A DNA stretch of 20,000 nt from an uncultured virus (IMG/VR IMGVR_UViG_3300032167_000100) (IMGVR_UViG_3300032167_000100), one strand, 5' to 3'. Positions 2 to 18,673 are shown, counted from the first letter of the stretch. The notes: generated by a model from the letters alone, not told the origin. Translations and numbers: made by a program.

Positions 2-3000
2 ACCCATGTCTTCGGATTTATCTGTGAAGAGACCGACCAATTCCCACCACATGTTGGGAAGACCAGTTCCTTCAGTAACTTCTGCACCACCGTTACAGTT
101 CGAGTAAGAAGATCCGGTAGGATATTCAAGCTTGGTATGCTTACATTCACCAACCTGAATCCACTTCTCAGTAACAACACCTTCACCTCTATCAATATCG
201 AGAGAAAGCTTAGCGTTATAAGGCGTAGAGGTAGTACAGTCAGATGTATCGAGATATCCTTCTCTACCAAGAGCAGCGAGCTCATACCAAGTAAGGTTAC
301 AGAGTCTGTCATCCATATTGTAAGCAGTACGGGTTACGTTCTCTGTATCAAGGTCGAGACGGATTCGATAAGTCTCATACTTCCATCTGGGAGGAAGTAG
401 GAAGAGTCTGATACCGGTACCATCCTGGAGATAACCGAGCTTAGTATTCAGATGAGCCTGAAGGACTTCATCATTTGTAAGTGCGGCACCAGAAGGATAG
501 CTTACAGCATCATAGTATTTATAAGCTTTATTGTAGTACTCAAGCTTAGTGAGAACTACACCAGCTTCATCTACATTAAAGGAATCAAGACCGTAGCCGG
601 TAGAATGCTTATAACCGAAATCGAAGCGATTAAACTCAACTCTATCCTCGATAAGAATGAGAGAGTTAGCAACGATTTCATCACTAGCAGTTCCACGGAT
701 TATAATCGTATACTCTACGTTCGGTTGTACGTTTCTTGTGAGTACACAGTTTCCTGCGTAAAGAACGTTTTCCGAGATAAAGATCTTGAATCCATTTGTA
801 TGGTTAGAGGGAGAAGCATCGAGAACCATATACATACCAGATGCACCAGTATGTCTGAATCTACAGAGAAGTGTATATTCATCGTTTCTGGTTCTGAAAG
901 TCTTCAGGTTATAACCATGGATAGGAAGAGAAACTTCCTGAATATGGTCAGACGAGGAGATATCGAGTTCCTGAAGCGAGTTACAAGAGTCGAGATAAAG
1001 TGCAGAAACGTTACTACACTCATCGAATGCACCTGCAGCGATAGACTCAATAGACGCCGGAATAACGCTGAAGTTAACCTTGTCACAGTTATAGAATGCC
1101 CTCTCACCGATTTCTTTAATTCCGGAAGGAAGCTCACTGATAGAGAGGTTGGAACAACCTTCGAAGCAGGACCTACCAATTACCTTAAGACTATCAGGAA
1201 GTCTGAAGTCTTTGATAACAGTATTACCTTTGAAGCAAGCTTCTTCAAATTCATCGATCGAACAACCATCCGTAAAGCTCATGTCTTCACAGTGACTGAA
1301 GAAATATTGTGCATCAGCATTCGTGTCCATGTTAAAGACGTCAGGACCGATCGCAACAATGTGACCTTCGGTACCAGTACTATTGATATAAGTAGGACCG
1401 AACATGAAGATTTCCGGAGGCTGAAGACTTTTATTTTTGATAAGATTAGAGTAGTCGACGAGCTTAAATCCGATTTGACCTTCGCCAAGATCTACCTCGT
1501 CAAATGTGAAGTATGTGTCATAGTCTCTACCTTTGGTAGGTTCATATGCCATAAGCTTCTGAATAGAGAACTGAAGTGCTCCCCAACCATTCTCATAACC
1601 ATTAGAAGGTACATAGGCATTAGACAAGCCGCTGTAGAATCTAAAGTTAAGGATAGACGATGCACCGCAATCCTCAAACGCATCTACTGCGATAGATGTA
1701 TTTCCAGCTACACCAGACAAACCGGTACCGTTAGCTGCAGAACCGAAAGAAAGGCTTCCAACAATTCCCACACAACCAGCGAATGCTCGTTTACCGATAG
1801 ATGTTACCGATGCAGGGATATAGCTGAGTGTCATATTTGTACAGGTATCAAATGCATGATCAGGAATAGTTACAAGTCTATTTGAGATCGTTGCCATTCT
1901 CATTGCAGTACAGCTCATGAATGCTTTCGCACCGATTTCAGTTACTGTATTAGGAAGAGCGGCAAAACGAACGTTGTAACAGCCTTCAAATGCAGATTCT
2001 CCGATACGAACAATATTCTCAGGGAATGCAGAGAATGTGACATTGACACAAGACTTAAAGGTACCAGCATTAATAGCCTGAATATTCGGAGGGAATATCG
2101 AGAAGGTTACATTCAAACAAGAGTAGAATGCATACTCTCCAATCGATGTAATTCCATTAGGCAAGCTATCAAAAGAAACTTTCTTACACTCATAGAATGC
2201 GTTTGCCCCGATCTCAGTAAGAGTCGAAGGAAGTTCATCGAATTCTACGTTTGCACAGTTCTTAAATGCGTTGGCACCAATTTTGGTAGTACCAGTAATG
2301 AAGTTAGAGAATGTAACAAGAGTACATCCCTCATAGACTCCATCGGGGATAATTGTCATTCCGGAAGGAAGTTCACTAAATGTTACTTTAGCACATCCAC
2401 TGAAGCATTCTGCAGGGAGAGTTGTCAAGCTTTCCGGAAGTTCAGAAAGGGTAATATTAGCACATCCCTTAAAACACGCATCTCCAAGAGATGCCAAAGT
2501 AGCAGGAAGACTAGCCAATTTAATAGCAGCACAGTTAGTGAAACCATGGCTACCGATTGTAGTCAGTCCTGAAGGAAGTGTGCTCAGACTGATCTTGTTA
2601 CACTCATTGAATGCATAATCGGGAATAGCTGTCAGTACAGAAGGAATTCTGGTAGCTTCCCAATTATTACATCCGTCGAAGCAGTGAGCTCCGATAGTTG
2701 TAACAGTATCAGGAATATCAAAGTTTTCCAAGTTAGTACAACCATAGAAAGCATATGCACCGTAGGTAGTGATATCTTCGGTAATGATAATACTTTCAAG
2801 CTGTTCACAACCAGAGAATGCACCAGCTCCAATTTCACCGGACAGAATTGTTATATTTCTCAATCCTGCAGGCATATAGAAGCTGTGCACGTCGCCGTCT
2901 CCATCGCCATATTTCTGATTAACTACGATAGTAGGCTTATCGCCTGTACCGTACTGATTGGTCGAGAAAATACGACCGAACAGAGCATCAGCAACAGTTG

Positions 3001-4099
3001 ACGGGTCGATATGTCTTCCGACGAAAGGCAACTGCAAGCTTACAAGTGAATACAAACCACTGAGAAGATTCTCGGGAAGCTGAACGATACCTTTAGGAAG
3101 GCTGAGGCTTTCCATATTGATAGCACCAGTAAAGATAGCAGTATCAGCGATGGTATACTCAGGTTTAGCCTGAGAAGTTCCTCTGTCGTATGCAGCAAAG
3201 TATTCATCAAAGTGAGCGTTGATCAGATATGCGTTCTTAGCAACGTTACCAAGCAAGAATGCACCATTGTTTAAGTTCCAAGGACCTCTTGCAATGAACG
3301 AAATTGTATATTCGCCGGGGTTGTAAATATGAGTCAAAGATTCACCAACAATAGGACTTCCGTCTTCGGCAACACCACCACAAACCTGAGAAGTTCCATC
3401 ACCCCAGATGACAGTCATGATACTATCATCGTACTTCTGTACATTGATGGTTACCTCAAATTCACCGGCTGTTGTCTTCTTAATGTCAAAGTGTGTGAAT
3501 CCAGATCCAGTACTCATCTTCTCATACTCGGACTGAGTAATAATAAGGTGAGCATAATTTTGCCAGTTCGGTGCACTTGTATATGCAGTACGAACTGTGT
3601 TACCTACCGAGTCAGGGACAACAAAGATACGGTCTGCACTATTCTCTTCGAATGTGTTCATACCGATCTCGGGAGGAGTAGTTCTTGTCATAAGGACGAA
3701 TTTAATACCCTTACAACCATAGAAAGCGTAATCCTGAATGATTTCCACTGAATCGGGGATGGATACTCTTTGAATATCCGTATTCATGCTAAAAGCATGG
3801 GTTCCGATAACGGTAACAGGAAGATCGCCGTTATCGTAGTATTTAGGAATACCGAGCAAGGTCTGACCTTCGAATGCTGTCGTATATCCGTTTCCGGCAC
3901 TATTTGTACCTTTACCTACACGATAGCGGGAAATATCAGAACCAGAAGCAGCGGCATTGCTCGCATTCAGACCATCATACACAAGACCTTTTGAACCGGA
4001 GTAGTACAATCTATTTCTATATGTAGTTCCCCATGTATTGTGATCGAGGTAATCATAGTACTGAGAATACGGGACAAATATTTTTCCCTGATTCTTCAT
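2..4099 (-). CDS. Large BspA-type leucine-rich-repeat protein (>1366 aa, 3' end outside the window), probable virion adhesin/receptor-binding protein
   Basis: Absent from the ORF track because no stop occurs before the window edge. ATG at 4099, AGGAGG 6 nt upstream. Hand translation starts MKNQGKIFVPYSQYYDYLDHNTWG and ends ...PNMWWELVGLFTDKSEDMG. It has a regular array of about 23-aa LRR_5 repeats (e.g. LPSTLTEIGANAFYECKKVSFDS, ~1750-2850) and a PKD-like IWGDGT module (~3270-3480). The + strand shadow ORFs 137..400, 452..1885, 2684..3001 and 3329..3751 share its codon register. Confidence 0.9.
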   Translation of the reverse strand, partial: MKNQGKIFVPYSQYYDYLDHNTWGTTYRNRLYYSGSKGLVYDGLNASNAAASGSDISRYRVGKGTNSAGNGYTTAFEGQTLLGIPKYYDNGDLPVTVIGTHAFSMNTDIQRVSIPDSVEIIQDYAFYGCKGIKFVLMTRTTPPEIGMNTFEENSADRIFVVPDSVGNTVRTAYTSAPNWQNYAHLIITQSEYEKMSTGSGFTHFDIKKTTAGEFEVTINVQKYDDSIMTVIWGDGTSQVCGGVAEDGSPIVGESLTHIYNPGEYTISFIARGPWNLNNGAFLLGNVAKNAYLINAHFDEYFAAYDRGTSQAKPEYTIADTAIFTGAINMESLSLPKGIVQLPENLLSGLYSLVSLQLPFVGRHIDPSTVADALFGRIFSTNQYGTGDKPTIVVNQKYGDGDGDVHSFYMPAGLRNITILSGEIGAGAFSGCEQLESIIITEDITTYGAYAFYGCTNLENFDIPDTVTTIGAHCFDGCNNWEATRIPSVLTAIPDYAFNECNKISLSTLPSGLTTIGSHGFTNCAAIKLASLPATLASLGDACFKGCANITLSELPESLTTLPAECFSGCAKVTFSELPSGMTIIPDGVYEGCTLVTFSNFITGTTKIGANAFKNCANVEFDELPSTLTEIGANAFYECKKVSFDSLPNGITSIGEYAFYSCLNVTFSIFPPNIQAINAGTFKSCVNVTFSAFPENIVRIGESAFEGCYNVRFAALPNTVTEIGAKAFMSCTAMRMATISNRLVTIPDHAFDTCTNMTLSYIPASVTSIGKRAFAGCVGIVGSLSFGSAANGTGLSGVAGNTSIAVDAFEDCGASSILNFRFYSGLSNAYVPSNGYENGWGALQFSIQKLMAYEPTKGRDYDTYFTFDEVDLGEGQIGFKLVDYSNLIKNKSLQPPEIFMFGPTYINSTGTEGHIVAIGPDVFNMDTNADAQYFFSHCEDMSFTDGCSIDEFEEACFKGNTVIKDFRLPDSLKVIGRSCFEGCSNLSISELPSGIKEIGERAFYNCDKVNFSVIPASIESIAAGAFDECSNVSALYLDSCNSLQELDISSSDHIQEVSLPIHGYNLKTFRTRNDEYTLLCRFRHTGASGMYMVLDASPSNHTNGFKIFISENVLYAGNCVLTRNVQPNVEYTIIIRGTASDEIVANSLILIEDRVEFNRFDFGYKHSTGYGLDSFNVDEAGVVLTKLEYYNKAYKYYDAVSYPSGAALTNDEVLQAHLNTKLGYLQDGTGIRLFLLPPRWKYETYRIRLDLDTENVTRTAYNMDDRLCNLTWYELAALGREGYLDTSDCTTSTPYNAKLSLDIDRGEGVVTEKWIQVGECKHTKLEYPTGSSYSNCNGGAEVTEGTGLPNMWWELVGLFTDKSEDMG

Positions 4100-4105
4100 G
4101 AGTTT

Positions 4106-4111
4106 CCTCCT
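4106..4111 (-). promoter_or_regulatory. Shine-Dalgarno AGGAGG for the CDS starting at 4099
   Basis: Minus strand reads TTC AGGAGG AAACTC ATG. Confidence 0.8.
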
Positions 4112-4115
4112 GAAT

Positions 4116-4154
4116 AAAAAATTTCTCTAAGGGACCATATAGATCCCTTAGAGA
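4116..4154 (-). terminator. Intrinsic terminator-like hairpin between the two giant ORFs
   Basis: Minus strand TCTCTAAGGGATC-TATAT-GGTCCCTTAGAGA (13-bp stem with one G-U pair, 4124-4154), followed by AATTTTTT. Confidence 0.65.
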
Positions 4155-4171
4155 TTTGTAGTACTTAATTA

Positions 4172-7100
4172 TTAGAAAGTCGTGCTCGTTACGCTAGGTA
4201 TTGCATCAGTATCCAGAATTACTCTATAGAGTTCATTACAGCTATTGAATGCATTTGCACCAAGCGATTGGATCTTTTCGAGCGTTACGTTAGGAAGCGA
4301 GCTACATCCGGCAAATGCGCCACTCTGAATTTCTTCAACGTTGTTAAGGTTGATATATTCCAGATGTGAACAGTAAGCGAATGCATTCGAACCAATTACA
4401 GTAACAGATTTAGGCAGGTTTACAGCAACCATTTCTGCATTACTACAGTTGGTCATGAAGTTATTACCCACCTTGGTATATTTGCTCAGATACATGCCAG
4501 GGAGAGAGATCGTCTTCATACCAGTAGCGCCATAGAACATATTTGCTCCGTAGTCTTCAATATGCTCATCAAGGATGGCAGAATTGATACGAGAGTTGTA
4601 GCTCTGGCTACCGAGAATATAAGTACCGCACTTCCAATTGCCTCTGTTGACAATCTTGATAGTAAAGGTATTCTTCTCACTAGTATCGTAAAGACAATGC
4701 TTAGGTTCTCCGACATATTCACCGTCAACAGTAGCTATAGTATAGTTATATCTCATCTCCTGCTTACCATCTGCATTTGTATATACCCAAGTATTATACT
4801 CTGCATTAGTAAGTACATAACGGTTATGATTATAATTCTTCTCATACTGATCGGAATGTGTACGGTTTGCTCTGTTGAACTGAACGCCAACACCGAGAAT
4901 CTTGCCATTACCATCCACTGCCCTATCGACAGGAATGTTGCCTTCAGCATCGGGTTCGCCACAGTAAGAAGTCCACGAATAAGTTCCATCACCCCAAATG
5001 ATCGTAGTCAATTCAGGTTTGTAGATGGTTTCTTCGTGACCAGTTGTATTATTAAATTTGGTAACCGGTGTCGGATACTTGGTAATTGAAATACCAAAGT
5101 TGTCATTCATATTAACAGTTACCTCAAGAGTAGTGATACCACTCTCAAAATCATCCTTATCAATGATAAAGATCTCATAAGTTGACCAGTTGGTAGCATT
5201 TACGAAGTTAGGTGTTGCGTCCTTAGGAACGACAAAGAGTCTATCATAAGCATTATTTTCAAATGCATCGATATTAACCATAGCAACGTTGCTACCCATA
5301 CTTGCACTCATATTAACTGTCGAAAGAGATGTACAACCGTAAAAGGCTTTGCTACCAATCGAATTGACACCAATACCGATATCTGCACTTGTAAGTCTTT
5401 CAGATCCTTCAAATGCCGAAGTACCAATGGTCTCAACGGCTGCAGGAATCTTGATACTGGTAAGTCCACACTGATAGAATGCTTTATTACCAATAGACTT
5501 ACAGGTCTCAGGGATTGCAAGAGTTTGAGTTCTTACTCCCGCAAATGCAGAAGGTCCGATACTCAAGAGGTTAGATCCCATCTCAAAGCTAATCGAGTAG
5601 GGAAGGTTATTTCCAGTAGGTGCTACGCCATAGAATGCATTAGGACCAATATAGTCCACACTTGCAGGAATTACGAATCCACCAGTTCCGGTATTATCCG
5701 TAAAGTTTACAAGGTTAGTACATCCATAGAAGCACTCTTCAGGAATAGATTCAATTGTATTAGCAAGACGAATACCAGAGAGGTTAGCACACATATAGAA
5801 GGATCTCTCACCAAGTTCAGCAAGTTCACCCTCAAACTTAAGGTTAGCATTCGAGCATCTCCAGAACATATCGTCTGTTACCTGAACGATAACAAAGCTG
5901 ATAGTTGCCGAAGCGAGTCCTGCCGCACCGTAGAATGCGTGGTCTCCGATACGAGTCAAAGCGGTGGTAAATGCAAACTTCGAATTCTTTACACCATAAC
6001 AAGCATAAGGTCTTACGATAGTTGTGTTACCATTGATTATGATCTGGCTTGTGTTGGACTTACCCATAGGATATGCAACAAGTTCAGTGTAAGAATTAGC
6101 ATACAAGATACCATCTACACTATTGAACTTAGCATTACCTGTACAAGCGATAGAATTCAGCTTGGGAGGTGTTCCAATATAGTTACCATTTGCATCCAGC
6201 TCAGAGATCATGAATGCACGATCATAAATAGTTTTAACGTTCTGGGTAATAGCGATCTGTTCCATATTTACACAACCCTTGAAGCAGTCGTAGTAAATAC
6301 CAACAGTGGACTCAGCAAGAGTATTGTTCGCAACATCGGGATCAACCGTAGAGATAGCCCAGAGATACTGGTTTGTCGAGTTGCCGAGGTACTTGATATT
6401 ACCAGAAGTATTATATTGAATTGCAGTATTTTTAAGAGCGTCTACACCGATTTCTTCAAGAGATGCAGGAACTGCAAGTGTGGCAAGGTTGGCACATCCG
6501 TTGAATACCGAATCACCAATAGATACAACACCGGCAGGAAGTTCTACACTAGTCAAGCTAGAGCATGCAGCGAATGCACCGGCTCCAACGTTACGAAGTG
6601 TAATAGCAAAACTCAATCCATTAATGGTAGAAAGTCCAGTACAGTTAGCAAATGCACCAACACCAATATCAGAAATCGGGCAGTTGCCGTCGATTGTAAA
6701 GGTCTGGAGACTTGCAATGTTCTGGAATGCACCGAACGGAATGCGTTCTGTCTTAAGCAGATGAATCTCTCTGATCGAGCTAGGAATATAGTATTCCTCA
6801 AACTCGGTCTCATTGAAGTATTGAGTTGTAGGTGCGATATTAGATTCCTTCATAAGATCAACGTAATCTCTGTTATAAACCATGATGTTGTCATCGTTCA
6901 TAATCGAAGTGATTACATAAGGTGTCGATCCATTCGGGAAGGTATAGTAAGTTTCTTTATAGGTAGCTCCCTCAGTGATTTCAACGATAGTGTCATAGCC
7001 CTGAGATGCAACAGAGTTACGGATGTAGATGCTACTTCCGCTAGGTCCTGCTACAAACTTGAGCATGTTTACCATTACAGGAACTTCAGGCGTTCCAGTG

Positions 7101-10100
7101 TTAACATCGACAGACATAATAGTTGTCTCTGTACCATAAGAAATGGCTTTTTCTGTATCAAAGAAGATGGTCTTTCCAGTAAGATTATCACCAACCTTAA
7201 CAGAGTCAGGGTTGATCTGATAACCGAAGAAGTATCCGAATACAGAGTCATATGTCTTATTAGAGTCTTTAGTTCTGCCGACATAGGGAACTTTCATGAT
7301 TTGAATTGCGTTACATTTATTGAATACAAAGTCGCCGATATACTCTACCGATACAGGAAGAGCAACCGTTGTAATATTCTGGCAGTTATAGAATGCGTAG
7401 TCTTCGAGTCTCTTAAGTCCCTCATTAAAGGTAACCGTTCCAACACCGCAGTTAGCAAATGCATAAGACTGGATAATCTCTGCACCAGTGCCAAGTACCA
7501 CAGTATTGACAGCACTACAGTTCTCAAAGACAGATTCCTCGATAACTTTTACGTTATTAGGAATAGTAACCGTACCAGCAATAGCTGTACCCTTGAAGGC
7601 TTTGCTATTGATATACTTTGTATTAGACGACGCTTCCATCGTCAAATTTGTAAGAGTTATAATGCCTTCACAAGCAGATTCTGCAATAAGCAGAGTGCTG
7701 CTGTCAACGGGAAGTCTGGTAGTTCCACTCTCAACACAGAGGAGATACTTACCATTGTTAGAATCAAGATAGAGTGCCTTACCGCCACCGGTGGATACCC
7801 AGTGTTTATCAGTAGTATGAGTAGCAGCCTCTTCATAAGTACCAGCAAATGCAGTACCATTAAAGACAGTCTTACCCGTACCGATATATTCAAGGTCAAT
7901 ACCGTTTGCAAGAGTTACCGTTGCAAGATTCCTACATCCGTTAAATGCACCAGCATTAATTCTCTTTGTAGATCTTGGAATAGTAATTTCGGTGAGATTT
8001 TCACAACCGCCAAATGCACTCAAACCGATTTCACGGAGAGAGCCAGGAAGCGTGATATTTTCAGCTGTGCTAGACTGGAATGCATAGCTACCGATTACCT
8101 CAGTCTTAGAAACACTGCCCCAGTTGATATCCATCCTCGAGTTAGCAAATGCATGCTCTTCAATGGTTACCAAGCTATCAGGGATATTTCTTTCTCTGGG
8201 TTGGCAGTTAACTTTCATATATTCACTTGCACAGTTATTGAATGCGTACTTACCAATATTTGTAATAGTCGGGTTACCCGTCCACATGATAGTGGCAGTA
8301 CAGTTGTTAAATACATTCTCACCAAGATGCTTTACAGAGTCAGGGATTTCAATTGTCTGCAGGTCGGTACATCCAGAGAATACTTCGTTTCCGATATATT
8401 CAACTTCAGAACCGGTTTCAAAGTAGACAGCAGTTACACCTCTACCACCAGCAAACATCGAGCTGAAGAGTCTATCTCCCAGAGCCTTGATCGGAATACC
8501 ATCAATAGCCTTAGGAATAACGAGCTCAGTATTTCCAGTCTCAGTAAATGCAGATTCGACTTTCGTCAATTTATAGGAAAGCGGGTTTCCATTACCGTCG
8601 CTCTCATAAGCCTCGTAACCATCCTTATAGAATGCAGGGTTCAGAGGAGCAGAGGTATAACCCGAGATAAAGTGTGAATAGATACATTCGTTCTTAGAAA
8701 TGCTCGGAACCACAGGAGACCAGTGGGAGAACATAAGGTTACCATTAGTAGGATACTCAGGGTTGTTATATTCAGGCATATCACCTTCATCAACGAACTC
8801 TGTATAGATATCCTCATAACCGATAATATGACAAGTGAAATTATCAGTAGAACAGATCTGGTTATTAACGATGATCTGTGCACCACTTGCGTCATACCAG
8901 TAACCGGTAGATTGAGCGTCAGCAGGAGGCTGTGCTCTGATACCATCGGAAGAGGTATAAACGATGTTGCCATTGTTATCTTTAAGAACGACTTTGTGAG
9001 TTACAGAAGAGTACATAGCAAGTGTATTATCCGCATTACGGATCCACATGTCATATGTAGCAATTCTCTTATAACGGTTATTTACACCGTCTGTCTGCAC
9101 ATATCGGATATGACCTTGGTCATTATATTCCTCAAGTGCAAGATAGTAGTCAGAAGGCGAGTAAGAGGTGATAGCACCATCTACACACCAGTAACTAGAG
9201 ACGAGAGATGCTTTAATCTCAACAGAGTCAGTAATTACAGGAGCATTGTCACCTTCAATAGGTTGGTTAGTGTTTGTAGCCAACAGAACAGGGCGGAACA
9301 TCGACTTGTTGATATTATTAGCTCCATTACCAAATGTATCGGTAAGAAGCTCGCAATACCAAGTAGCATCGCCTTCCTCAGCCACGGTACGAACTACTTC
9401 CTGGATATATCCATTGGCACCTGTGGTACCTTCAACCTGAACGTCGGTTGCATTTGTTTTATAGTAGGTTGCATAGAAGAAGTTTGCAGATTCACCAAAA
9501 GTAAATCTAAGAGAACCATCGGCAATGTAGCTTGCCCAGTAGTCAGTCCAAAGCTCTTGGTTAACCTTCGAGACATTATTAACGATGATACTACCAGTAA
9601 GTACACACTTATCGATTTCTCCACCAGCTTCGGTCAAACCTCCACAAGCCATGAGTTTATTAAGAACATCCTTACCATCAAGTACCCAGTTGACATTAAT
9701 CAGACGAGCATACTTGAGGTTAGTTGCCTTCATTACCAGTTCAGGAATCTCAATACCTGCAACATCCTGGAGATACAGGTGAGTCAGGTTACTGTAATCC
9801 TCGAGACTCAAGTTCTCGATATACTTCTGGTTCTGAAGTTTGAGAGTTGTGATAGATCTAGGAAGCTTCATAACTCTAAGAGATCCGCCGTTAGGAACCA
9901 AGATCGAAGGAACGTTGGTACCAACTGCATAGATTTCCTGAATATTTGTGCATCCGGTCATATCGATAGAACCTGTGAGTGCATCGCAGTTACTAATGTC
10001 AAACTTCTGGAGAAGCGGCAGGTTAATAGTGGACATATACTCAGAGGTCAGGTAAGAGTTAGTGTATCCCTCACGAGAAGAACCGATGATAAGGTCCTTA

Positions 10101-13100
10101 AGCAAGGTTGCATAGCGGAAGTCAGGCTTACTAGGATAGAGATGAGAGATATCTCCGATAGAAGAGATATTATTAGATCCGAAGACCTTAAACACGATAT
10201 CCTGCATGATACCTGCTGCACTAGGCTTGATAGTAATGGTTTCACCTGCTCTACACTTACCACCATAGTACGTACCAGCAGAGTTACCATATTCACAATA
10301 TTGATACTGGGTAGTGGAAGGTGTTACGTTAATAGCGATTTCATCGGGTGTAACGTAAACATTCGTACCCTTGTTGATACGGAAAGAAATATTGTTAGCA
10401 AGGTACTGAGGAGAGATGTATTTCGAATCCAAGAAACTAATACGCTTCTCAACGAACCAGAGCTTATGATACTTCTTAGAACCTTGACAGAGGTACTGAT
10501 AAATGGATGTAAAGATATCAGATTGAGTCGTAATATCATAGTATCCATCAGTAAAGATATCAAGGTATTTGAATCTTTGGTCTTCATTATATACGACAGG
10601 AGGAAGAGTTTCAACACCCTTAGTCATATACTCATTAAACATGATCTCAGGAGAGAGCAATGTCTTTGTAGAGTCACGAAGAGTATTCCAACGAGCCTTA
10701 ATTTCAGCACCGAAAGCATCCTCAACCATGCACCAGAATACAGAACCTTCACCGTTGAAGCAGTAGGTAGGGTTACCATCTGCGTCGTAAGCATAGATAT
10801 CATGAATCTCGACGTCATAGTTATAGATGTTACGACCGTTGTTATCAACGCCTCCGCAAGAGTCCATATCGTAAAGCGAAGTATACCAAATCGGGAAAAT
10901 CGAATTCTCCCAGTCAATTAAGTTAAAGTTAAACTCGCCAGTGTCAGCATTAATACAGTCACGAACGGAAGAAATAGATCCGGAAGTAAACCTGATATTT
11001 ACCTCACTGAGTGCTTTTGCTTCTGTAGTATCTTTGCCTTCTGTTCTATACTGTGCATATCTATTCGTGTCATGATATACATCATAGCAGGACATGAACA
11101 TGTTCTTTGCACGGTTATCGACGAGTGCTATAGTTTCGACACAGATGTAGTAGTTAATTACGTGGGACTTCTTGAAGTGTCTTTCAAATTCCTTAATGAA
11201 GATTGCCTTACGGTAATCTCTCTCATTGTAGTAGTAGTTACCGTCATAAGTAAACGGAGTAACTACCGTCTCGGAGCTTGCTTCCCAGTAGTTTGCACGC
11301 TGGAGAACCCAAGAGTACATGACCTGCATGTGCATATAGTCGGGTTCCAATCCAACATCTTCCAGGTCACCCTGGTCAGGATATGTGGACTCAAGTGCCG
11401 ACAGAGCAGCAATCTTAGAACCAGTTACTCTACCATCAGAGTCAATCTGGGGAATGGGCTCGAGAAGTTTATGAGATTTGAAGTTACAGATATCATCCTT
11501 GTTATCAAGGTATTCCCATTTCTGTGCCTTGGTTGTATTTGTGATATTTCCATCTGCGTCTTCATCGCCATCGTTCTCCAGACCAAAGGACTTAGTAGAA
11601 CCCTTATCGTAGTTGAAGTTGTAACGACCAATGAAGTTAATCTCACTAGTCTCCGTGTCTCTCTGGAAGATAAGGCAACGGAAGCCAGGGATACAGATGA
11701 AGCAGTCTTTATTATCCTCTCCATAAGGATTGTTTCTCTGGGGAGGTATGGGATCTTCGAAGAACTTAGGGAAGAGTCGACCGTTGTCAGAGTTGATACC
11801 GTCAGGAGACATGTAGTCAGCCTTTACACAGATAGTAGACTCAGCAGCACCCATATAGTTGCCTTCGGAGAAGAGTTTGTATTTGAACTTCGACTCAGAG
11901 ATCTCATCATTAACACCAATGTTAACGTGATGAGCTCCAGTCTCAGCATTCAATTGCAATGCAGAAGCCTGACGAATTCTGGTCTCATCCTGAATAAGGT
12001 ACTGAGCGATGTTAGAATTCTGTTCGCCTCTGTAGTAGAATTCGCTTCCTGCAGGAACGAAGTAATATCGATAGCCTTCCTCAGTTCCATCAGTAGCATC
12101 GAAGATAAGAACGTTGGACTGAGAAGCGGTAACGATAGGAGCAAAGACAGAGGTTTCATCAGTTCCATTGGTAGAGCTACCAGTGAAATCACAAGCCTTA
12201 ACACACTGCCACTGAGCCTTCGCATAGTAAACGATATCATTTACTCGGTAGGTAGAAGTGGTCTGATATGTGTCGGACTGCTGAGAATCGGCGATCTTTA
12301 CCCAGTACTCAGTGTTACCAGGTCCATACCATTTCTTAAATACGAACGGCTTATATTCACAGTATGTCTCATCCGTACCATCTTCACTCTTGACATAGTA
12401 GGACGTTACATTCTGATAATCTTTTGTCTTGATAAGAACGAATTTGAACTTGTAATTCTTCTTAGCATAAATCTGAGAAGACGTACCCTGAACGTTGGTT
12501 TCGCAAAGATAGATCTTTTCTTCGGTATTGTCACCCTTTGTATAGTAGTCCATACAATTGATCTTAGTCTCGAAACCTTCAGCAGTACTTGCAGGTTCAG
12601 TATAGATGATACCAACCTTGGTCTTGTTTCCCTTAATAGGAGATAACTGTCCAGTTACCAGGAAGCAAGGATAAAGCTTCTTAGCCTTATCATAGACAAG
12701 CTTGATACCAGACATACCACCAGAGGTATTGTAGATGTTGTTCTTATCATATTCTGCCATCTTCTCTTTGATACTAGGTCTATCTGCGATAAAGTTCTGG
12801 ATAATATCAGAATCCTTAAGAGCCATTTCATAGCATCTTACAGAGTAGACATCCAAGGTTGCATCGTTAGAACCAAGTACGAGAGAAGGCTTAGTGTTTT
12901 GGCTAAAGTAATAGCTGGAGAAGGAGAGTGCTTTGGAAAGCTCACCGTTGAGGTACATACGAATAAACTGAGTTGTATTCATCTTACCTGACGATGCATT
13001 CTCATTCTCGATTACGATAGTAAGCTGGATACGCTCATTATCCTTGATCTGAACGAACGGGATAGAGTCTTTGTTAGAGATAGATCCAGCCGAGTTGTAG

Positions 13101-15244
13101 TGAAGCTTAAAGTTCTCATTGGTGAGGTAAGCTTCCTGAGGTGTGACGATAAGTCCACGACCTTCAGTATTGTTGATGAGTGAGATACAAGGTGTGCCAT
13201 AGTCCAAGACGTTGGATACCTTGAAGTCAATTACGATAGTTCTACCACTACCAGCAATGGTATTAGTAGCCTCTACGAAATCTCCATCATTACGATAATA
13301 GAGATATTGGTCGTTAAAGAGAATCGGAATAGTACACTTTGCAGATCCATTAAGATGGAGAGCGATAGCACCTTCATCATCCTCAATCCAACCATTGTTA
13401 ACATAGTTCAGGTTCTGAAGCGAAGCCTCGAGAACTTTACCGGTATTTGCACCACCCTGGAAACATGTCCAGCTTGCTTTAGATTCCGATGCATTCGACT
13501 TACCAGAAGAGGTAAAGTAACAGAATGTAGGAACGCTTGCAGGGTTCAGGTTGTAGTCACCGGATACAGAACCAAGCTCGAGCATGAATGTCTTTGCAGT
13601 AGTACCATGTTCATTGGTACAAGACAGCTCAAGGAATATAGTAGTAGCAGTCTTCGGGTCAGGATAGTCAGTAATTGCCCATCTGTCCTTAGCTGCTCCG
13701 TTTTTGAAAGTTACATCTTCATCATCATAGATGATTTTAACAACGTATCTACCTTCAGCAATTTCGAGACCGGTATCTCTCCGTCTAATCTGGGTTGCAC
13801 TAGGTGTTGCGTCATCTGCAACTACAAGAAGTGCACCCTCAGCATCAGCAGTAAGTTCCTGACCGAGCTCATCGGTGCCGGTATAATAGTAGATTGTACG
13901 AACTACATTGTTCGTATACTCAGTAGATGCATTGTAAGAGTAAACCGCATATGTGATATATGCGTTATCACCATAATCGATCTTATTAGCGGAAATGGAT
14001 GCAGAAATCAACGGTACCGGATTATTGGATTCACAATACATGATATTGAAATACAAACTATCCGACTTGATTACATTATCAGTATCAATAGTACCAGTAA
14101 TTACGCAGTATTGCTCCATGGAATAGGTTCCATGGTAACTTTCTTTTCCAGGGAAGAGATCGCTAAGGTTAATAGTTGACCAGTTATATGCACCGGAAGA
14201 AGTACCAATGTCTTTAACAATAGTCTTCTTAACACCAGTAGCATCATCGGTAATATCCAAGTATACCGTCTTCTCAACACCTTCACCGAAGCAGTACCAA
14301 GCATATGTAATAATCTGCATATTCTTGACAGTTGCATCGCTAAATGCTGAGTCAGGTTCAAGGTACATGGCAATGACATTAACTGTAAAGTCCATAGACT
14401 TCTGCTTTCTGGACTCGCCACCGGTTACGGTAATACGAATAGTATTCTCACCTTCAGCGAAATCATAACCATAGTCAGCAGGGTCGAAGTAAACAGGACA
14501 GTAAGTCTTACCAAGTTCATAGCTCGGGTCGTTAGGATCGGTTACCGTAGTCGGGTTGATGTTATAGACCAAGTTAGGATGAGAGATTGTTACAAACTTC
14601 TCATCGGTAGGTCTCTTGATTTGGTAAGTGATAGTACCAGGTTTATTGGTAGTATCGTTACCATATTTCTCATTATATACAAATCCTACTTCACAGGACT
14701 GACCTGTAGTAAGAGTATAAGATGTCTGAATTTCTGTTGAATAGAGCTGTACAAGGAACGAAGTTGCGACGTCGGTAAGAACTCGGTTAATATCGATCTT
14801 ATAAACGATAACTTCTTCATTCTCAGTGTCGATGTATGTGATAATTTCACCAACTTCACCAATGTTCTTTGCATAGTTCTCAGCTTCAGCCATATCGGTG
14901 AATATTTTAGATTCACCACCAGCAATGGGTATGAAGTTAGGAAGACCGCCTGCTTTATTTGCAAGTCGGATGTATGCATTACTCTCACCGGTTAAAAATA
15001 CGATAGTATCTTTCGGTATCAGGCTTGTTGCACCTGATACCGGACCGATAGGTTTAGATACACCCGCTTCATAGTCTTCCAGAGATTCATAGACTGCCGT
15101 TTTATTAGAGTTGAAAGCATAGAAGGCTTTCGGAACTCGCTTATTAATAGGAGTAGAGTCTGATGTTGACGATGCAATATGATCACCATAGGCGATTATT
15201 TCGTCAGCGTCAGTGGTAGTCATTTTACCGATAACCTTTGGCAT
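4172..15244 (-). CDS. Giant 3690-aa multidomain phage protein: LamG-like + CotH-like kinase + LRR + BspA LRR_5 blocks + PKD-like module
   Basis: Uninterrupted ORF with SD AGAGGAG at 15254-15260. Kinase-like motifs QGTSSxxYAKKNYK, CVKADYMS, GRYNFNYDKG, DNRAKNMF, LYDMDS (~10410-12660). LamG-like region GWIEDDEG...GRTIVIDFKV...MYLNGE (~12790-13510). LRRs at ~9680-10170. Many IPxSVxxIGxxAFxxC repeats between 4175 and 8540. IWGDGT at ~4982-4999. Confidence 0.92.
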   Translation of the reverse strand: MPKVIGKMTTTDADEIIAYGDHIASSTSDSTPINKRVPKAFYAFNSNKTAVYESLEDYEAGVSKPIGPVSGATSLIPKDTIVFLTGESNAYIRLANKAGGLPNFIPIAGGESKIFTDMAEAENYAKNIGEVGEIITYIDTENEEVIVYKIDINRVLTDVATSFLVQLYSTEIQTSYTLTTGQSCEVGFVYNEKYGNDTTNKPGTITYQIKRPTDEKFVTISHPNLVYNINPTTVTDPNDPSYELGKTYCPVYFDPADYGYDFAEGENTIRITVTGGESRKQKSMDFTVNVIAMYLEPDSAFSDATVKNMQIITYAWYCFGEGVEKTVYLDITDDATGVKKTIVKDIGTSSGAYNWSTINLSDLFPGKESYHGTYSMEQYCVITGTIDTDNVIKSDSLYFNIMYCESNNPVPLISASISANKIDYGDNAYITYAVYSYNASTEYTNNVVRTIYYYTGTDELGQELTADAEGALLVVADDATPSATQIRRRDTGLEIAEGRYVVKIIYDDEDVTFKNGAAKDRWAITDYPDPKTATTIFLELSCTNEHGTTAKTFMLELGSVSGDYNLNPASVPTFCYFTSSGKSNASESKASWTCFQGGANTGKVLEASLQNLNYVNNGWIEDDEGAIALHLNGSAKCTIPILFNDQYLYYRNDGDFVEATNTIAGSGRTIVIDFKVSNVLDYGTPCISLINNTEGRGLIVTPQEAYLTNENFKLHYNSAGSISNKDSIPFVQIKDNERIQLTIVIENENASSGKMNTTQFIRMYLNGELSKALSFSSYYFSQNTKPSLVLGSNDATLDVYSVRCYEMALKDSDIIQNFIADRPSIKEKMAEYDKNNIYNTSGGMSGIKLVYDKAKKLYPCFLVTGQLSPIKGNKTKVGIIYTEPASTAEGFETKINCMDYYTKGDNTEEKIYLCETNVQGTSSQIYAKKNYKFKFVLIKTKDYQNVTSYYVKSEDGTDETYCEYKPFVFKKWYGPGNTEYWVKIADSQQSDTYQTTSTYRVNDIVYYAKAQWQCVKACDFTGSSTNGTDETSVFAPIVTASQSNVLIFDATDGTEEGYRYYFVPAGSEFYYRGEQNSNIAQYLIQDETRIRQASALQLNAETGAHHVNIGVNDEISESKFKYKLFSEGNYMGAAESTICVKADYMSPDGINSDNGRLFPKFFEDPIPPQRNNPYGEDNKDCFICIPGFRCLIFQRDTETSEINFIGRYNFNYDKGSTKSFGLENDGDEDADGNITNTTKAQKWEYLDNKDDICNFKSHKLLEPIPQIDSDGRVTGSKIAALSALESTYPDQGDLEDVGLEPDYMHMQVMYSWVLQRANYWEASSETVVTPFTYDGNYYYNERDYRKAIFIKEFERHFKKSHVINYYICVETIALVDNRAKNMFMSCYDVYHDTNRYAQYRTEGKDTTEAKALSEVNIRFTSGSISSVRDCINADTGEFNFNLIDWENSIFPIWYTSLYDMDSCGGVDNNGRNIYNYDVEIHDIYAYDADGNPTYCFNGEGSVFWCMVEDAFGAEIKARWNTLRDSTKTLLSPEIMFNEYMTKGVETLPPVVYNEDQRFKYLDIFTDGYYDITTQSDIFTSIYQYLCQGSKKYHKLWFVEKRISFLDSKYISPQYLANNISFRINKGTNVYVTPDEIAINVTPSTTQYQYCEYGNSAGTYYGGKCRAGETITIKPSAAGIMQDIVFKVFGSNNISSIGDISHLYPSKPDFRYATLLKDLIIGSSREGYTNSYLTSEYMSTINLPLLQKFDISNCDALTGSIDMTGCTNIQEIYAVGTNVPSILVPNGGSLRVMKLPRSITTLKLQNQKYIENLSLEDYSNLTHLYLQDVAGIEIPELVMKATNLKYARLINVNWVLDGKDVLNKLMACGGLTEAGGEIDKCVLTGSIIVNNVSKVNQELWTDYWASYIADGSLRFTFGESANFFYATYYKTNATDVQVEGTTGANGYIQEVVRTVAEEGDATWYCELLTDTFGNGANNINKSMFRPVLLATNTNQPIEGDNAPVITDSVEIKASLVSSYWCVDGAITSYSPSDYYLALEEYNDQGHIRYVQTDGVNNRYKRIATYDMWIRNADNTLAMYSSVTHKVVLKDNNGNIVYTSSDGIRAQPPADAQSTGYWYDASGAQIIVNNQICSTDNFTCHIIGYEDIYTEFVDEGDMPEYNNPEYPTNGNLMFSHWSPVVPSISKNECIYSHFISGYTSAPLNPAFYKDGYEAYESDGNGNPLSYKLTKVESAFTETGNTELVIPKAIDGIPIKALGDRLFSSMFAGGRGVTAVYFETGSEVEYIGNEVFSGCTDLQTIEIPDSVKHLGENVFNNCTATIMWTGNPTITNIGKYAFNNCASEYMKVNCQPRERNIPDSLVTIEEHAFANSRMDINWGSVSKTEVIGSYAFQSSTAENITLPGSLREIGLSAFGGCENLTEITIPRSTKRINAGAFNGCRNLATVTLANGIDLEYIGTGKTVFNGTAFAGTYEEAATHTTDKHWVSTGGGKALYLDSNNGKYLLCVESGTTRLPVDSSTLLIAESACEGIITLTNLTMEASSNTKYINSKAFKGTAIAGTVTIPNNVKVIEESVFENCSAVNTVVLGTGAEIIQSYAFANCGVGTVTFNEGLKRLEDYAFYNCQNITTVALPVSVEYIGDFVFNKCNAIQIMKVPYVGRTKDSNKTYDSVFGYFFGYQINPDSVKVGDNLTGKTIFFDTEKAISYGTETTIMSVDVNTGTPEVPVMVNMLKFVAGPSGSSIYIRNSVASQGYDTIVEITEGATYKETYYTFPNGSTPYVITSIMNDDNIMVYNRDYVDLMKESNIAPTTQYFNETEFEEYYIPSSIREIHLLKTERIPFGAFQNIASLQTFTIDGNCPISDIGVGAFANCTGLSTINGLSFAITLRNVGAGAFAACSSLTSVELPAGVVSIGDSVFNGCANLATLAVPASLEEIGVDALKNTAIQYNTSGNIKYLGNSTNQYLWAISTVDPDVANNTLAESTVGIYYDCFKGCVNMEQIAITQNVKTIYDRAFMISELDANGNYIGTPPKLNSIACTGNAKFNSVDGILYANSYTELVAYPMGKSNTSQIIINGNTTIVRPYACYGVKNSKFAFTTALTRIGDHAFYGAAGLASATISFVIVQVTDDMFWRCSNANLKFEGELAELGERSFYMCANLSGIRLANTIESIPEECFYGCTNLVNFTDNTGTGGFVIPASVDYIGPNAFYGVAPTGNNLPYSISFEMGSNLLSIGPSAFAGVRTQTLAIPETCKSIGNKAFYQCGLTSIKIPAAVETIGTSAFEGSERLTSADIGIGVNSIGSKAFYGCTSLSTVNMSASMGSNVAMVNIDAFENNAYDRLFVVPKDATPNFVNATNWSTYEIFIIDKDDFESGITTLEVTVNMNDNFGISITKYPTPVTKFNNTTGHEETIYKPELTTIIWGDGTYSWTSYCGEPDAEGNIPVDRAVDGNGKILGVGVQFNRANRTHSDQYEKNYNHNRYVLTNAEYNTWVYTNADGKQEMRYNYTIATVDGEYVGEPKHCLYDTSEKNTFTIKIVNRGNWKCGTYILGSQSYNSRINSAILDEHIEDYGANMFYGATGMKTISLPGMYLSKYTKVGNNFMTNCSNAEMVAVNLPKSVTVIGSNAFAYCSHLEYINLNNVEEIQSGAFAGCSSLPNVTLEKIQSLGANAFNSCNELYRVILDTDAIPSVTSTTF

Positions 15245-18078: not shown

Positions 18079-18083
18079 AAATA

Positions 18084-18091
18084 CACCTCCT
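18084..18091 (-). promoter_or_regulatory. Shine-Dalgarno AGGAGGTG
   Basis: Near-perfect anti-SD complement 5 nt upstream of ATG 18078. Confidence 0.8.
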
Positions 18092-18101
18092 AAATAGATG
18101 T

Positions 18102-18136: not shown

Positions 18137-18143
18137 TAATTGT

Positions 18144-18662: not shown

Positions 18663-18673
18663 AGTTGTGTTCC

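What the first reader, a model, noticed from the sequence alone, without database searches (positions are those of the whole stretch)
3990..4240. Two giant in-frame ORFs are split in the middle of one LRR cap motif by a 75-nt stop/hairpin/RBS cassette
Seen: the 3690-aa ORF ends ...NELYRVILDTDAIPSVTSTTF and the next ORF begins MKNQGKIFVPYSQYYDYLDHNTWGTTY, in the same frame and exactly 75 nt (25 codons, 4100-4174) apart. Joined, they form one BspA-LRR C-terminal cap (PxxxxxxF-x6-8-IxVP...Y...W..Y). The same cap occurs intact twice in this window: NIDAFENNAYDRLFVVP...NWSTY (~5180-5270) and PPEIGMNTFEENSADRIFVVP...NWQNY (~3545-3690). Inference: an ancestral protein of more than 5000 aa was cut inside a domain. 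The halves may re-associate by cap complementation, giving a detachable or sub-stoichiometric distal adhesin, or may be rejoined at the RNA or translation level. The spacer is tidy (double stop, 13-bp hairpin, strong SD), which argues for selection rather than decay.
Basis: partly seen in the sequence, partly recalled or inferred. Interest (0 to 1): 0.8.

Follow-up and report, generated by a model that had tools for sequence, protein, structure and literature searches.

The report
Giant phage fibre gene split inside a domain
Two neighbouring giant leucine-rich-repeat genes of an uncultured animal-gut phage-like element are the two pieces of one protein domain, cut by a tidy 75-base spacer that all known relatives keep; the pieces probably snap back together as proteins, but this is untested.

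Summary
ORF1 (15244..4172, 3690 aa) ends ...TSTTF. ORF2 (4099..<2; 1875-1878 aa in relatives) starts MKNQGKIFVP. Between them lie 75 nt with TAA-TAA, a 13-pair hairpin plus T-run, AGGAGG and ATG.

A profile of 43 intact caps from other LRR_5 proteins matches ORF1's last 30 residues at positions 2-31 and ORF2 residues 4-25 at positions 37-58. An unsplit 850-aa protein (P0259) aligns collinearly across the junction, with its gap over the spacer.

All three protein clusters related to each ORF, and three contigs from three other studies, keep the split. No fused close relative was found. Two of those three contigs have a 74-nt spacer, so the shared frame is not conserved. Read-through or other rejoining is very unlikely.

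ORF2's first 143 residues are almost invariant (1 variable column). ORF1's last 90 residues are the most variable part of ORF1.

Best reading: a selected gene fission inside a domain (about 0.85). The two proteins are then joined by fold complementation (about 0.45, inferred). This is a new variant of the known phage "genes in pieces".

The parts
4172..15244 (-). ORF1, 3690 aa. It has a non-LRR N-terminal part of about 2200 aa, then several LRR_5 blocks. The protein ends before the C-terminal cap of its last LRR domain.
   Evidence: PF13306, E 8e-145; relatives P0003-P0005 are all 3690 aa
4175..4264 (-). First half of the split cap: ORF1 aa 3661-3690, LGANAFNSCNELYRVILDTDAIPSVTSTTF.
   Evidence: It matches cap-profile positions 2-31 and the match ends at the protein's last residue. 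The core residues are invariant in 4 sequences; the variable columns are 3663, 3668, 3670, 3680, 3681 and 3687.
4169..4174 (-). Double stop, TAA TAA.
4124..4154 (-). Hairpin of 13 pairs with a 5-nt loop.
   Evidence: unique in the window with up to 3 mismatches; no Rfam match
4113..4123 (-). AATTTTTTATT tract after the hairpin. With the hairpin it resembles an intrinsic terminator; whether it works as one is untested.
4106..4111 (-). Shine-Dalgarno AGGAGG, 6 nt before the ATG.
   Evidence: other gene starts in the window also carry GGAGG-type sites
2..4099 (-). ORF2, 1366 aa within the window. It runs off the window end; relatives are 1875-1878 aa. It is an LRR_5 protein.
4019..4090 (-). Second half of the split cap: ORF2 aa 4-27, QGKIFVPYSQYYDYLDHNTWGTTY.
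   Evidence: It matches cap-profile positions 37-58. In the AF2 model the strand and two helices have pLDDT 92-94.
3671..4099 (-). ORF2's first 143 aa, nearly invariant among 4 sequences (1 variable column, T25S).
5171..5362 (-). Intact paralogous cap in ORF1, aa 3295-3358.
   Evidence: Profile hit at positions 1-61, 37.7 bits.
3545..3739 (-). Intact paralogous cap in ORF2, aa 121-185.
   Evidence: Profile hit at positions 2-62, 40.7 bits.

Best explanation
This is a fixed gene fission. One very long BspA-type (LRR_5) fibre or adhesin reading frame, about 5,570 aa in total, belongs to an uncultured phage-like element from animal guts. It is interrupted by a 72-75-nt intercistronic cassette: double stop, stable hairpin plus T-run, AGGAGG, ATG.

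The cassette sits in the loop between the two halves of the C-terminal cap of an LRR domain. It does not sit at the domain boundary, which lies about 30 residues further on.

The two cistrons are translated separately, and there is no read-through.

Inferred mechanism: ORF1 ends as an uncapped LRR solenoid. The first ~27 residues of ORF2 (the strand KIFVP plus the helices carrying W23 and Y27) supply the missing cap. This fold complementation would dock the variable 1878-aa distal protein non-covalently onto the 3690-aa proximal one. It would resemble donor-strand complementation between pilus subunits, or the reassembly of other split phage proteins.

The hairpin and T-run may trim or stabilise the transcript. 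Its effect on the ratio of the two proteins is unknown.

Shown: Inferred: the single ancestral gene (odds about 0.85 for a selected fission inside a domain) and the physical re-association (odds about 0.45).
For: 1. Position of the break. A profile was built from 43 cap segments of other LRR_5 proteins. ORF1 aa 3661-3690 match positions 2-31, ending at the last residue. ORF2 aa 4-25 match positions 37-58. Full-length hits occur only at the two intact caps.

2. Rarity. Of the 300 proteins fetched, only the 4 ORF2-family members start with a half cap scoring 14 bits or more; 4 others score 5.6 bits or less and look like signal peptides. The 4 ORF1-family members end at profile position 31 (19.5-25.1 bits); the only other protein listed as ending before the cap, P0135, scores 1.3 bits at positions 8-20.

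3. Unsplit homologue. With X at the stops, the junction aligns to P0259 (850 aa) in one collinear BLASTP alignment: E 9e-26, 72 of 258 residues identical, with a 24-residue gap in P0259 over the spacer. ORF2 aa 5-88 match P0259 aa 495-577 at 41% identity. In alignment A3, all 11 comparator rows are gapped across most of the spacer.

4. Spacing. From the (I/P)P motif to IFVP there are 13 residues across the break, against 14 in the intact ORF2 cap and in P0259. That fits an insertion between codons.

5. Fold. The AF2 model of the X-read-through, built on the 12-row alignment A3, gives the LRR part block-mean pLDDT mostly 67-98 (57 for the first ten residues), the spacer 44-47, and ORF2 aa 10-29 92-94. 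The model's residues 1-205 align to the C-terminal LRR plus cap of 4fd0 (Z 18.3, rmsd 2.9, 171 aligned) and of 4fdw (Z 16.8). 4fd0 carries the same cap motif near its C-terminal end (aligned to residue 399 of 404); 4fdw_A matched only in the summary table, without a shown alignment.

6. Maintenance. ORF1 relatives P0003, P0004 and P0005 (clusters of 28, 5 and 1 members) are all 3690 aa and end ..TTF. ORF2 relatives P0123-P0125 all start MKNQGKIFVP. Contigs from 3 other studies span the junction with the cassette present, and no joint skips it.

7. Selection pattern. ORF2's first 143 columns hold 1 variable column, against 21.9% over the 1366 columns compared. ORF1's cap-half keeps its core residues.

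8. Neither protein starts with a signal-peptide-like sequence (read by eye). The neighbouring genes hit PHROGs, and one carries Peptidase_S74.
Against: - No unsplit orthologue was found. The one-gene ancestor is inferred from paralogues and from one distant homologue.
- ORF1's last 90 residues are the most variable stretch of ORF1 (23 variable columns), while the proposed partner segment of ORF2 is invariant. No co-variation is visible.
- The AF2 model leans on an alignment of intact caps, so it shows compatibility, not binding.
- The near-invariance of ORF2's start could reflect a recent recombination or sweep rather than purifying selection. The DNA of the relatives could be seen only in part: 81 differences were not listed.
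- If the terminator-like hairpin is efficient, it would make ORF2 scarcer than ORF1, which is not what a 1:1 joint predicts.
- Phage origin is only moderately supported. There was no DNA match in the phage collection. The only matches in the viral-contig collection were a few short peptide patterns that tblastn did not confirm as relatives. All PHROG hits are of 'unknown function'.
Confidence: 0.55

Rival explanations
1. The split is real and maintained, but the half-caps are relics. ORF1 tolerates an uncapped last LRR, or caps it in another way. ORF2 attaches elsewhere on the particle or cell, or acts alone. Its conserved first 143 residues then serve another partner, or are conserved through recent recombination. 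A variant of this reading: the two half-caps come from two different parent genes joined by illegitimate recombination, so there was never one 5,570-aa ancestor.
For: - ORF1's C-terminal 90 residues are its most variable part, and nothing co-varies with ORF2's invariant start.
- ORF2 aa 38-103 form a normal entry motif of the next LRR module, as in P0259. ORF2 is therefore a complete module string apart from its first ~27 residues.
- Conserved N-terminal and variable distal parts are the usual layout of phage fibre proteins whatever their docking site (general knowledge).
Against: - The complementarity is exact: profile positions 2-31 against 37-58, with spacing within one residue of the intact caps. 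Two independent truncations would rarely give this.
- The half cap of ORF2 is not decaying: 1 change in 27 residues across 4 sequences.
- In solved LRR_5 structures the cap is part of the domain.
- Uncapped LRR solenoids expose their hydrophobic core (general knowledge from LRR engineering, recalled).
Confidence: 0.3
2. The two ORFs are rejoined during expression into one polypeptide of about 5,570 aa. Possible routes are stop-codon read-through or recoding, ribosomal bypassing (a hop from the last Phe codon TTC at 4177-4175 to the TTC at 4114-4112, which is in frame with ORF2), or RNA splicing.
For: - The ORFs are in frame in this window.
- A stop follows the last codon directly, a stable hairpin lies in the gap, and a matching TTC lies in ORF2's frame before the SD (read by eye). 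These loosely recall T4 gene 60 (recalled).
Against: - There are four in-frame stops of two kinds.
- 2 of 3 related contigs have a 74-nt spacer, so the frame relation is not kept.
- A strong SD and ATG with correct spacing serve ORF2.
- The hairpin starts 20 nt after the would-be take-off codon rather than containing it.
- A TTC or TTT codon inside a T-run is expected by chance.
- No intron or other RNA family matched, and 75 nt is too short for a self-splicing intron.
- A hop would give a cap loop 4 residues longer than in the intact caps.
Confidence: 0.03
3. Artefact or decay: an assembly or sequencing error, or a recently broken pseudogene.
For: Giant repetitive genes are prone to assembly errors (general knowledge).
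Against: - The same break is present in three protein clusters for each ORF, drawn from several sources.
- It is also present in contigs of three other studies.
- Both ORFs stay open over 11 kb and 5.6 kb despite 5% and 22% variable columns.
- The spacer has an ordered stop / hairpin / SD / ATG layout.
Confidence: 0.02

Closest known systems
Split DNA polymerase gene 43 (43A/43B) of T4-related Aeromonas phages 44RR and 25. In 44RR the interruption is a short 'intercistronic untranslated sequence' (IC-UTS). Source: passages of the review PMC2988022 seen; the primary paper was not seen.
   Same: A contiguous coding region is cut into two cistrons by a short non-coding intercistronic insert with no endonuclease gene (44RR). 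The review states that the two polypeptides of phage 25 co-purify and are active.
   Different: That case is an enzyme, not a structural repeat protein. Whether its cut also lies inside a fold unit was not seen. Here, reassembly is only inferred. The size and features of the IC-UTS could not be checked: a search for 'IC-UTS' found only the review.
'Genes in pieces' made by free-standing homing endonucleases: nrdA of phage Aeh1 (mobE) and the T4 topoisomerase genes 39/60 (mobA). Source: passages of PMC2988022.
   Same: An insertion in a functionally critical region splits a phage gene, and the halves reassemble into a working protein.
   Different: Those inserts carry an endonuclease gene. The 75-nt spacer here has no ORF. 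At most it could be a remnant of such an insert, for which there is no evidence.
Intact LRR_5 C-terminal caps: crystal structures 4fd0 and 4fdw (Bacteroides cell-surface proteins), the metagenomic protein P0259, and the two paralogous caps in this window.
   Same: The motif is the same (..PP..x..F, about 7 residues, [IL][FY]VP..Y.., W..[FY]) and so is the predicted fold.
   Different: In all of these the cap is one continuous chain. Here the chain is broken after the F.
Donor-strand complementation between subunits of chaperone-usher pili (recalled from general knowledge; no call).
   Same: The proposed logic is the same: a subunit with an incomplete fold is completed by the N-terminal extension of the next subunit, giving a stable non-covalent joint in a fibre.
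   Different: The fold differs (Ig-like versus LRR solenoid cap), as does the system. No chaperone is known here. This is a functional analogy only, not membership.
Translational bypassing in T4 gene 60 (recalled).
   Same: A stop follows directly after a codon that recurs downstream, and a hairpin lies in the gap.
   Different: Here the take-off codon is not in the hairpin, an independent SD and ATG serve ORF2, and there is no evidence of a nascent-peptide signal.

Membership tests
BspA-type leucine-rich repeat proteins (Pfam LRR_5, PF13306) | Match to the Pfam profile above its gathering score. | tested here: met
   ORF1 scores 475.5 bits and ORF2 408.6 bits against a cut-off of 27.7. The last 130 aa of ORF1 alone score 71.7 bits.
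LRR_5 domain with the C-terminal cap of type ..F-x7-[IL][FY]VP..W..[FY] | The cap is contiguous with the last repeat in one polypeptide. | tested here: not met
   The chain ends at profile position 31 and the next protein resumes at position 37. All 11 comparator rows in A3 are gapped across most of the spacer.
Split gene with a short intercistronic untranslated insert (IC-UTS type, gene 43 of phage 44RR) | A short non-coding insert carries stop and restart signals inside a coding region that is otherwise contiguous. | tested here: met
   The 75-nt spacer has no ORF. It appears as an insertion relative to P0259 and the paralogous caps.
Split gene with a short intercistronic untranslated insert (IC-UTS type, gene 43 of phage 44RR) | The two products reassemble into a functional protein. 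| not testable with these tools
   This needs biochemistry. The AF2 read-through model shows only that the fold is compatible.
Genes in pieces by homing-endonuclease insertion (Aeh1 nrdA, T4 39/60) | An endonuclease gene lies between the two halves. | tested here: not met
   Only 72 nt lie between the stop and the ATG, and no ORF is present.
Self-splicing intron or other described RNA element | Match to an Rfam model, and a size compatible with a ribozyme. | tested here: not met
   No Rfam match at E up to 1 in 3900-4400. The insert is 75 nt.
Gene 60-type translational bypass | Matched take-off and landing codons, with a stop directly after take-off. | tested here: met
   TTC at 4177-4175 is followed by TAA, and TTC at 4114-4112 lies in ORF2's frame. 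This is expected by chance in a T-run.
Gene 60-type translational bypass | The take-off codon lies inside the stem-loop, and the downstream part has no independent initiation site. | tested here: not met
   The hairpin starts 20 nt after the codon. AGGAGG lies 6 nt before the ATG.
Intrinsic (rho-independent) terminator | A G+C-rich stem immediately followed by a U-tract. | tested here: inconclusive
   There are 13 pairs, 6 of them G-C, and the site is the top hit of the scan. However, two A residues separate the stem from the six Ts. No 3'-end data exist: the RNA contig of run X23 covers only 3668-4007.
Phage tail-fibre or host-recognition module | Neighbouring genes of virion or fibre type, and phage family matches. 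| tested here: inconclusive
   Peptidase_S74 is present in the ORF at 18674-19999. All six ORFs hit PHROGs, but only families of unknown function. Only distant LRR matches (28.6-35.8% identity) appeared in the phage collection. The only matches in the viral-contig collection were 7 and 6 short pattern hits that tblastn did not confirm.

The most novel reading that the evidence does not exclude
ORF1's uncapped last LRR would be a 'socket' and ORF2's first ~27 residues a 'plug'. This would be a natural split-LRR, donor-strand-like joint that strings megadalton fibre modules together non-covalently. It would let the fast-evolving distal module be exchanged, by recombination at the conserved plug and spacer or even at the protein level in mixed infections, without touching the 11-kb proximal gene. 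A still bolder and much less likely add-on: a minor fraction of ribosomes hop from TTC to TTC and make a covalently fused form.
Probability: 0.4. Interest if true: 0.7.

Novelty: new variant of a known kind. Interest (0 to 1): 0.5.

Why it matters
If the two proteins do rejoin through the split cap, this would be a natural case of fragment complementation in an LRR solenoid. It would also be a new way to build and diversify very long phage fibres or adhesins.

The case is well defined for experiment: a 27-residue 'plug' and a ~150-residue 'socket', which is a tractable size. It could serve as a template for engineered split-LRR or modular receptor-binding proteins.

It also matters for annotation. 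A gene boundary that looks clean (stop, hairpin, SD, ATG) can lie about 30 residues inside a domain, so domain-based pipelines would call two 'complete' proteins.

If the halves do not rejoin, the finding is a conserved oddity of limited reach.

Tried and rejected
**Binding and folding**
- Complex prediction on ORF1 aa 3520-3690 with ORF2 aa 1-60, each given as an alignment, returned 'no answer' (score 0.00, controls not run). This is neither support nor evidence against binding.
- AF2 on the X-read-through without an alignment gave a poor model (mean pLDDT 48, everything after residue 127 below 50). It was uninformative.

**Profile and alignment attempts**
- The Pfam LRR_5 profile cannot test the cap. 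It is a repeat model, and ORF2 aa 1-60 gave no hit.
- A larger alignment, A4 (23 rows), misplaced the query within the repeats and was not used.

**Searches for relatives or an unsplit orthologue**
- Phage collection: no DNA match. tblastn with the ORF1 C-terminal piece gave only distant LRR matches in 6 records. The ORF2 N-terminal piece gave none.
- Viral contigs, by protein: no confirmed relative.
- JGI metagenome contigs, by protein: none.
- GTDB genome contigs: 10 loci, all generic LRR_5 proteins at 31-53% identity. I looked at 3 of the 10 (L002, L003, L005) and they said nothing about the junction.
- The ORF1 N-terminal 2200 aa found only the same three close relatives among proteins of 2029-6458 aa.
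- The C-terminal query in that same length range found no fused close relative. After the three close relatives, the remaining listed hits show 21-40% identity, mostly over 21-44% of the query; P0019 covers 97% at 24% and P0094 covers 57% at 26%. Shorter or longer forms outside those ranges were not searched.

**Is the hairpin a mobile cassette?**
- An arm pattern with a free loop gave 0 matches in viral contigs and 0 in metagenome contigs. There is only one copy in the window.

**SD sequestration by ORF1's end (translational coupling)**
- This pairing appears in the MFE fold of 106 nt. In a 131-nt context it has pair probability of about 0.02, and the SD instead pairs locally with 4102-4098. 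I dropped the idea.

**RNA evidence**
- The one RNA-library contig laid (run X23) covers 3668-4007 only. It does not reach the junction, so it says nothing about co-transcription.

**Literature**
- A search for BspA / LRR / phage / tail fiber (listing only, 15 of 69 shown) found nothing on split LRR caps in phages. This is no proof that none is in print.
- The Jug-phage paper PMC12880540 has no mention of LRR or BspA (term search only).

Full report
**What is there**

The genes lie on the minus strand.
- ORF1 runs 15244..4172 (3690 aa) and ends ...NELYRVILDTDAIPSVTSTTF, followed by TAA TAA.
- ORF2 starts at the ATG at 4099-4097 with MKNQGKIFVPYSQYYDYLDHNTWGTTY and runs off the window end after 1366 aa. 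Its close relatives are 1875-1878 aa. The pair therefore totals about 5,570 aa.
- The interval 4100-4174 is 75 nt and in frame in this window, with four in-frame stops.
- It contains a 13-pair hairpin (4154-4124, 6 G-C pairs, 5-nt loop) followed by AATTTTTTAT. This is the best of 13 terminator-like sites in the window. The 106-nt region folds at -28.2 kcal/mol, z = -3.26.
- AGGAGG follows at 4111-4106, 6 nt before the ATG.
- No Rfam family matches, and the hairpin is unique in the window.

**Context**

- Both proteins are BspA-type LRR_5 proteins (PF13306, E 8e-145 and 4e-124).
- Upstream on the same strand lie four more ORFs with strong SD sites.
- One of them (18674-19999) carries a Peptidase_S74 'chaperone of endosialidase' domain.
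- All six ORFs hit PHROG families, though only ones of unknown function.
- Neither giant protein begins with a signal-peptide-like sequence (by eye).
- The stretch occurs in runs labelled feces metagenome, gut metagenome or goat gut metagenome from 15 studies, which the tool says are of animals by their record.
- No genome is held for the window.
- A phage host-recognition module is the likeliest setting, but this is not proven. No DNA or close protein match exists in the phage or viral-contig collections.

**Is the break really inside a cap?**

The motif [RK][IL]FV(V)P occurs at only three places in the two proteins: ORF1 aa 3337, ORF2 aa 7 and ORF2 aa 159.

Nearly all had the form ..(T)PP..x..F, about 7-9 residues, [IL][FY]VP..Y...W..[FY] in one chain.

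I built a profile from 43 of these segments. They were selected by a stricter expression, and a few may not be true caps.
- The profile gives full-length hits only at the two intact caps: ORF1 aa 3295-3358 (37.7 bits) and ORF2 aa 121-185 (40.7 bits).
- It gives complementary partial hits at the junction. ORF1 aa 3661-3690 match positions 2-31, ending at the last residue. ORF2 aa 4-25 match positions 37-58.
- Among all 300 proteins held, only the four ORF2-family members begin with a half cap at 14 bits or more. Four others score 5.6 bits or less and look like signal peptides.
- The four ORF1-family members end at position 31 at 19.5-25.1 bits. One other protein, P0135, is also listed as ending before the cap, at 1.3 bits.

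**An unsplit homologue of the junction**

A library-wide search with ORF2 aa 1-95 found 59 proteins at E up to 0.001.
- Only the ORF2 cluster itself carries the segment at its N-terminus.
- P0259 (850 aa) matches aa 5-88 internally, at 495-577, with 41% identity.
- In P0259 the first half of a cap stands immediately upstream in the same chain.

Read through with X at the stops, the junction aligns to P0259 in one collinear BLASTP alignment. The figures are E 9e-26 and 72 of 258 identical, with a 24-residue gap in P0259 lying over the spacer.

In alignment A3, all 11 comparator rows (P0259, the two paralogous caps and 8 other proteins) are gapped across most of the spacer.

From the (I/P)P motif to IFVP there are 13 residues across the break, against 14 in the intact ORF2 cap and in P0259. 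The simplest history is an insertion of 72-75 nt between codons.

P0259 also shows where the true domain boundary lies. After a cap come about 10 residues, and then the entry motif GL[VI]Y.GLNAS...GNGY...IP..Y...VT.IG..AF of the next LRR module. That motif corresponds to ORF2 aa 38-103. The gene boundary is therefore displaced about 30 residues into the preceding domain.

**Fold**

- Solved LRR_5 structures match the intact ORF2 cap by sequence. For 4fd0 the shown alignment carries the cap motif near the C-terminal end. 4fdw matched only in the summary table.
- An AF2 model of the X-read-through on the 12-row alignment A3 gives the LRR part block-mean pLDDT of 67-98 after the first ten residues (57) and 44-47 for the spacer (model residues 151-170).
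- In the same model ORF2 aa 10-29 score 92-94. There is a strand at 177-181 (KIFVP) and helices at 182-190 and 192-197.
- Model residues 1-205 superpose on the C-terminal LRR plus cap of 4fd0 (Z 18.3, rmsd 2.9 Å, 171 aligned) and of 4fdw (Z 16.8).
- Only 146 model residues come from ORF1 and the low-confidence spacer was trimmed, so at least about 25 of the aligned residues are ORF2's.
- This shows compatibility with the intact fold. It leans on an alignment of intact caps and is not evidence of binding between separate chains.

**Is it maintained?**

- ORF1 relatives P0003, P0004 and P0005 (96, 93 and 91% identical over aa 3300-3690) are all exactly 3690 aa and end ..TTF.
- ORF2 relatives P0123-P0125 all begin MKNQGKIFVP.
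- The search of proteins of 2029-6458 aa with the ORF1 C-terminal region would have admitted a fused form of ~5,570 aa. It found none close.
- Contigs of three runs from three other studies (X7, X8, X21) span the junction with the cassette present, and no joint skips it.
- X7 and X8 lack one base at 4165, so their spacer is 74 nt and the two ORFs are out of frame. X21 keeps 75 nt.
- Together with the four stops and the SD/ATG, this argues strongly against read-through. The 'same frame' is best seen as a leftover of an in-frame insertion, or as chance.

**Pattern of variation (four sequences per alignment)**

- ORF1 has 5.3% variable columns overall. They are concentrated in the LRR half, and the last 90 residues are the most variable stretch (23 columns).
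- Within the last 30 residues the variable columns are 3663, 3668, 3670, 3680, 3681 and 3687. All are non-core positions of the repeat consensus. L3672, V3675, I3676, L3677, I3682, P3683 and F3690 are invariant.
- ORF2 has 21.9% variable columns over 1366 columns, but only one (T25S) in its first 143.
- A conserved N-terminus followed by a variable remainder is the usual layout of a distal fibre protein that docks by its N-terminus (general knowledge). The natural partner of a half cap is the other half.
- A recent sweep or recombination could produce the same picture. The DNA differences of the relatives were only partly listed (81 rows hidden), so synonymous-site conservation could not be judged.

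**Mechanism proposed**

Shown:
- There are two cistrons.
- The break lies inside a cap and is conserved.
- The frame relation is not conserved, and ORF2 has an independent initiation site.

Inferred:
1. One ancestral reading frame was split by insertion of an intercistronic cassette (about 0.85 for a selected fission within a domain).
2. ORF1 folds with an open last repeat, and ORF2's first ~27 residues complete it. This docks the variable distal protein onto the proximal one (about 0.45).
3. The hairpin and T-run modulate the transcript by partial termination or stabilisation (open).

A similar arrangement (hairpin, T-rich tract, SD, ATG) precedes the gene at 18078. The spacer therefore looks like an ordinary intergenic signal of this genome placed in an extraordinary position.

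**Comparison with known systems**

The closest described kind is the 'genes in pieces' of T4-related phages.
- nrdA of Aeh1 is split by mobE.
- The T4 topoisomerase genes 39/60 are split by mobA.
- Closest of all is gene 43 of phage 44RR, split by a short intercistronic untranslated sequence. The products of the split gene of phage 25 co-purify and are active.
- These points come from passages of the review PMC2988022. The primary papers were not seen.

The present case differs in three ways. It concerns a structural repeat protein. The insert is only 75 nt with no endonuclease gene. The cut falls between two secondary-structure halves of a capping unit.

The proposed joint works like donor-strand complementation in pili (recalled). 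That is an analogy, not membership.

**Verdict**

I rate it a new variant of a known kind, of moderate interest.

Noticed in passing
window 18108-18136 (-), with 18139-18168 and 18080-18095: A second strong hairpin (13 pairs) followed by GTTTTTACAT lies in the 110-nt gap between the ORFs at 18189-18677 and 16354-18078. A promoter-like site (TTAATA-18-TACAAT) precedes it, and TAGGAGG plus ATG follow. The hairpin / T-tract / SD / ATG layout is the same as at the split. On the + strand the same palindrome also scores as terminator-like.
   Followed up: partly
window 18674-19999 (-): An ORF open at the window end (441 aa seen) has a Peptidase_S74 'chaperone of endosialidase' domain at aa 322-373. 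This is typical of self-cleaving phage tail fibres and spikes. Its stop overlaps the start of the next ORF (18674-18677).
   Followed up: no
window 8644-15244 (-), ORF1 aa 1-2200: The non-LRR N-terminal 2200 aa of ORF1 are 98-99% identical among relatives and have no Pfam family. Aa 1100-1900, the only part queried, gave no PDB sequence match. They hit only PHROGs of unknown function (phrog_24896 at aa 576-948, phrog_14959 at aa 1230-1891). What this part does is unknown.
   Followed up: partly
window ~4610-5170 (-) and ~2900-3545 (-): A domain of about 190-210 aa containing the motif (I/V)IWGDGT follows each intact cap and precedes the next LRR block, once in ORF1 (aa ~3360-3545) and once in ORF2 (aa ~186-400). 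ORF2 aa 29-493 align to ORF1 aa 3212-3683 at 25% identity, so the two sides of the split are paralogous module strings. No Pfam family covers this domain.
   Followed up: partly
window 3840-4010 (-), ORF2 aa ~30-86: The linker and entry segment of ORF2 gives multi-stretch matches (up to 20 stretches per protein, 30-40% identity) to repeats of the type YG..DP.LTY...G.L..GD.F.G.L.R..GE.VG.Y.I..G.L....NY in many large proteins (for example P0243 and P0247). This may be a distant relation between the LRR entry hairpin and that repeat, or a compositional effect.
   Followed up: no
window 4165 and 4158: The spacer is polymorphic. A 1-nt deletion at 4165 occurs in contigs of 2 of 3 runs, and G>T (+ strand) at 4158 occurs in all 3. 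No difference is listed inside the hairpin or the SD, but 81 differences were not shown.
   Followed up: partly
relatives P0123 and P0125: ORF2 relatives lie on contigs of up to 161 kb and 263 kb, so the element may be a jumbo phage or sit in a larger replicon. Their C-terminal part carries PF19789.
   Followed up: no
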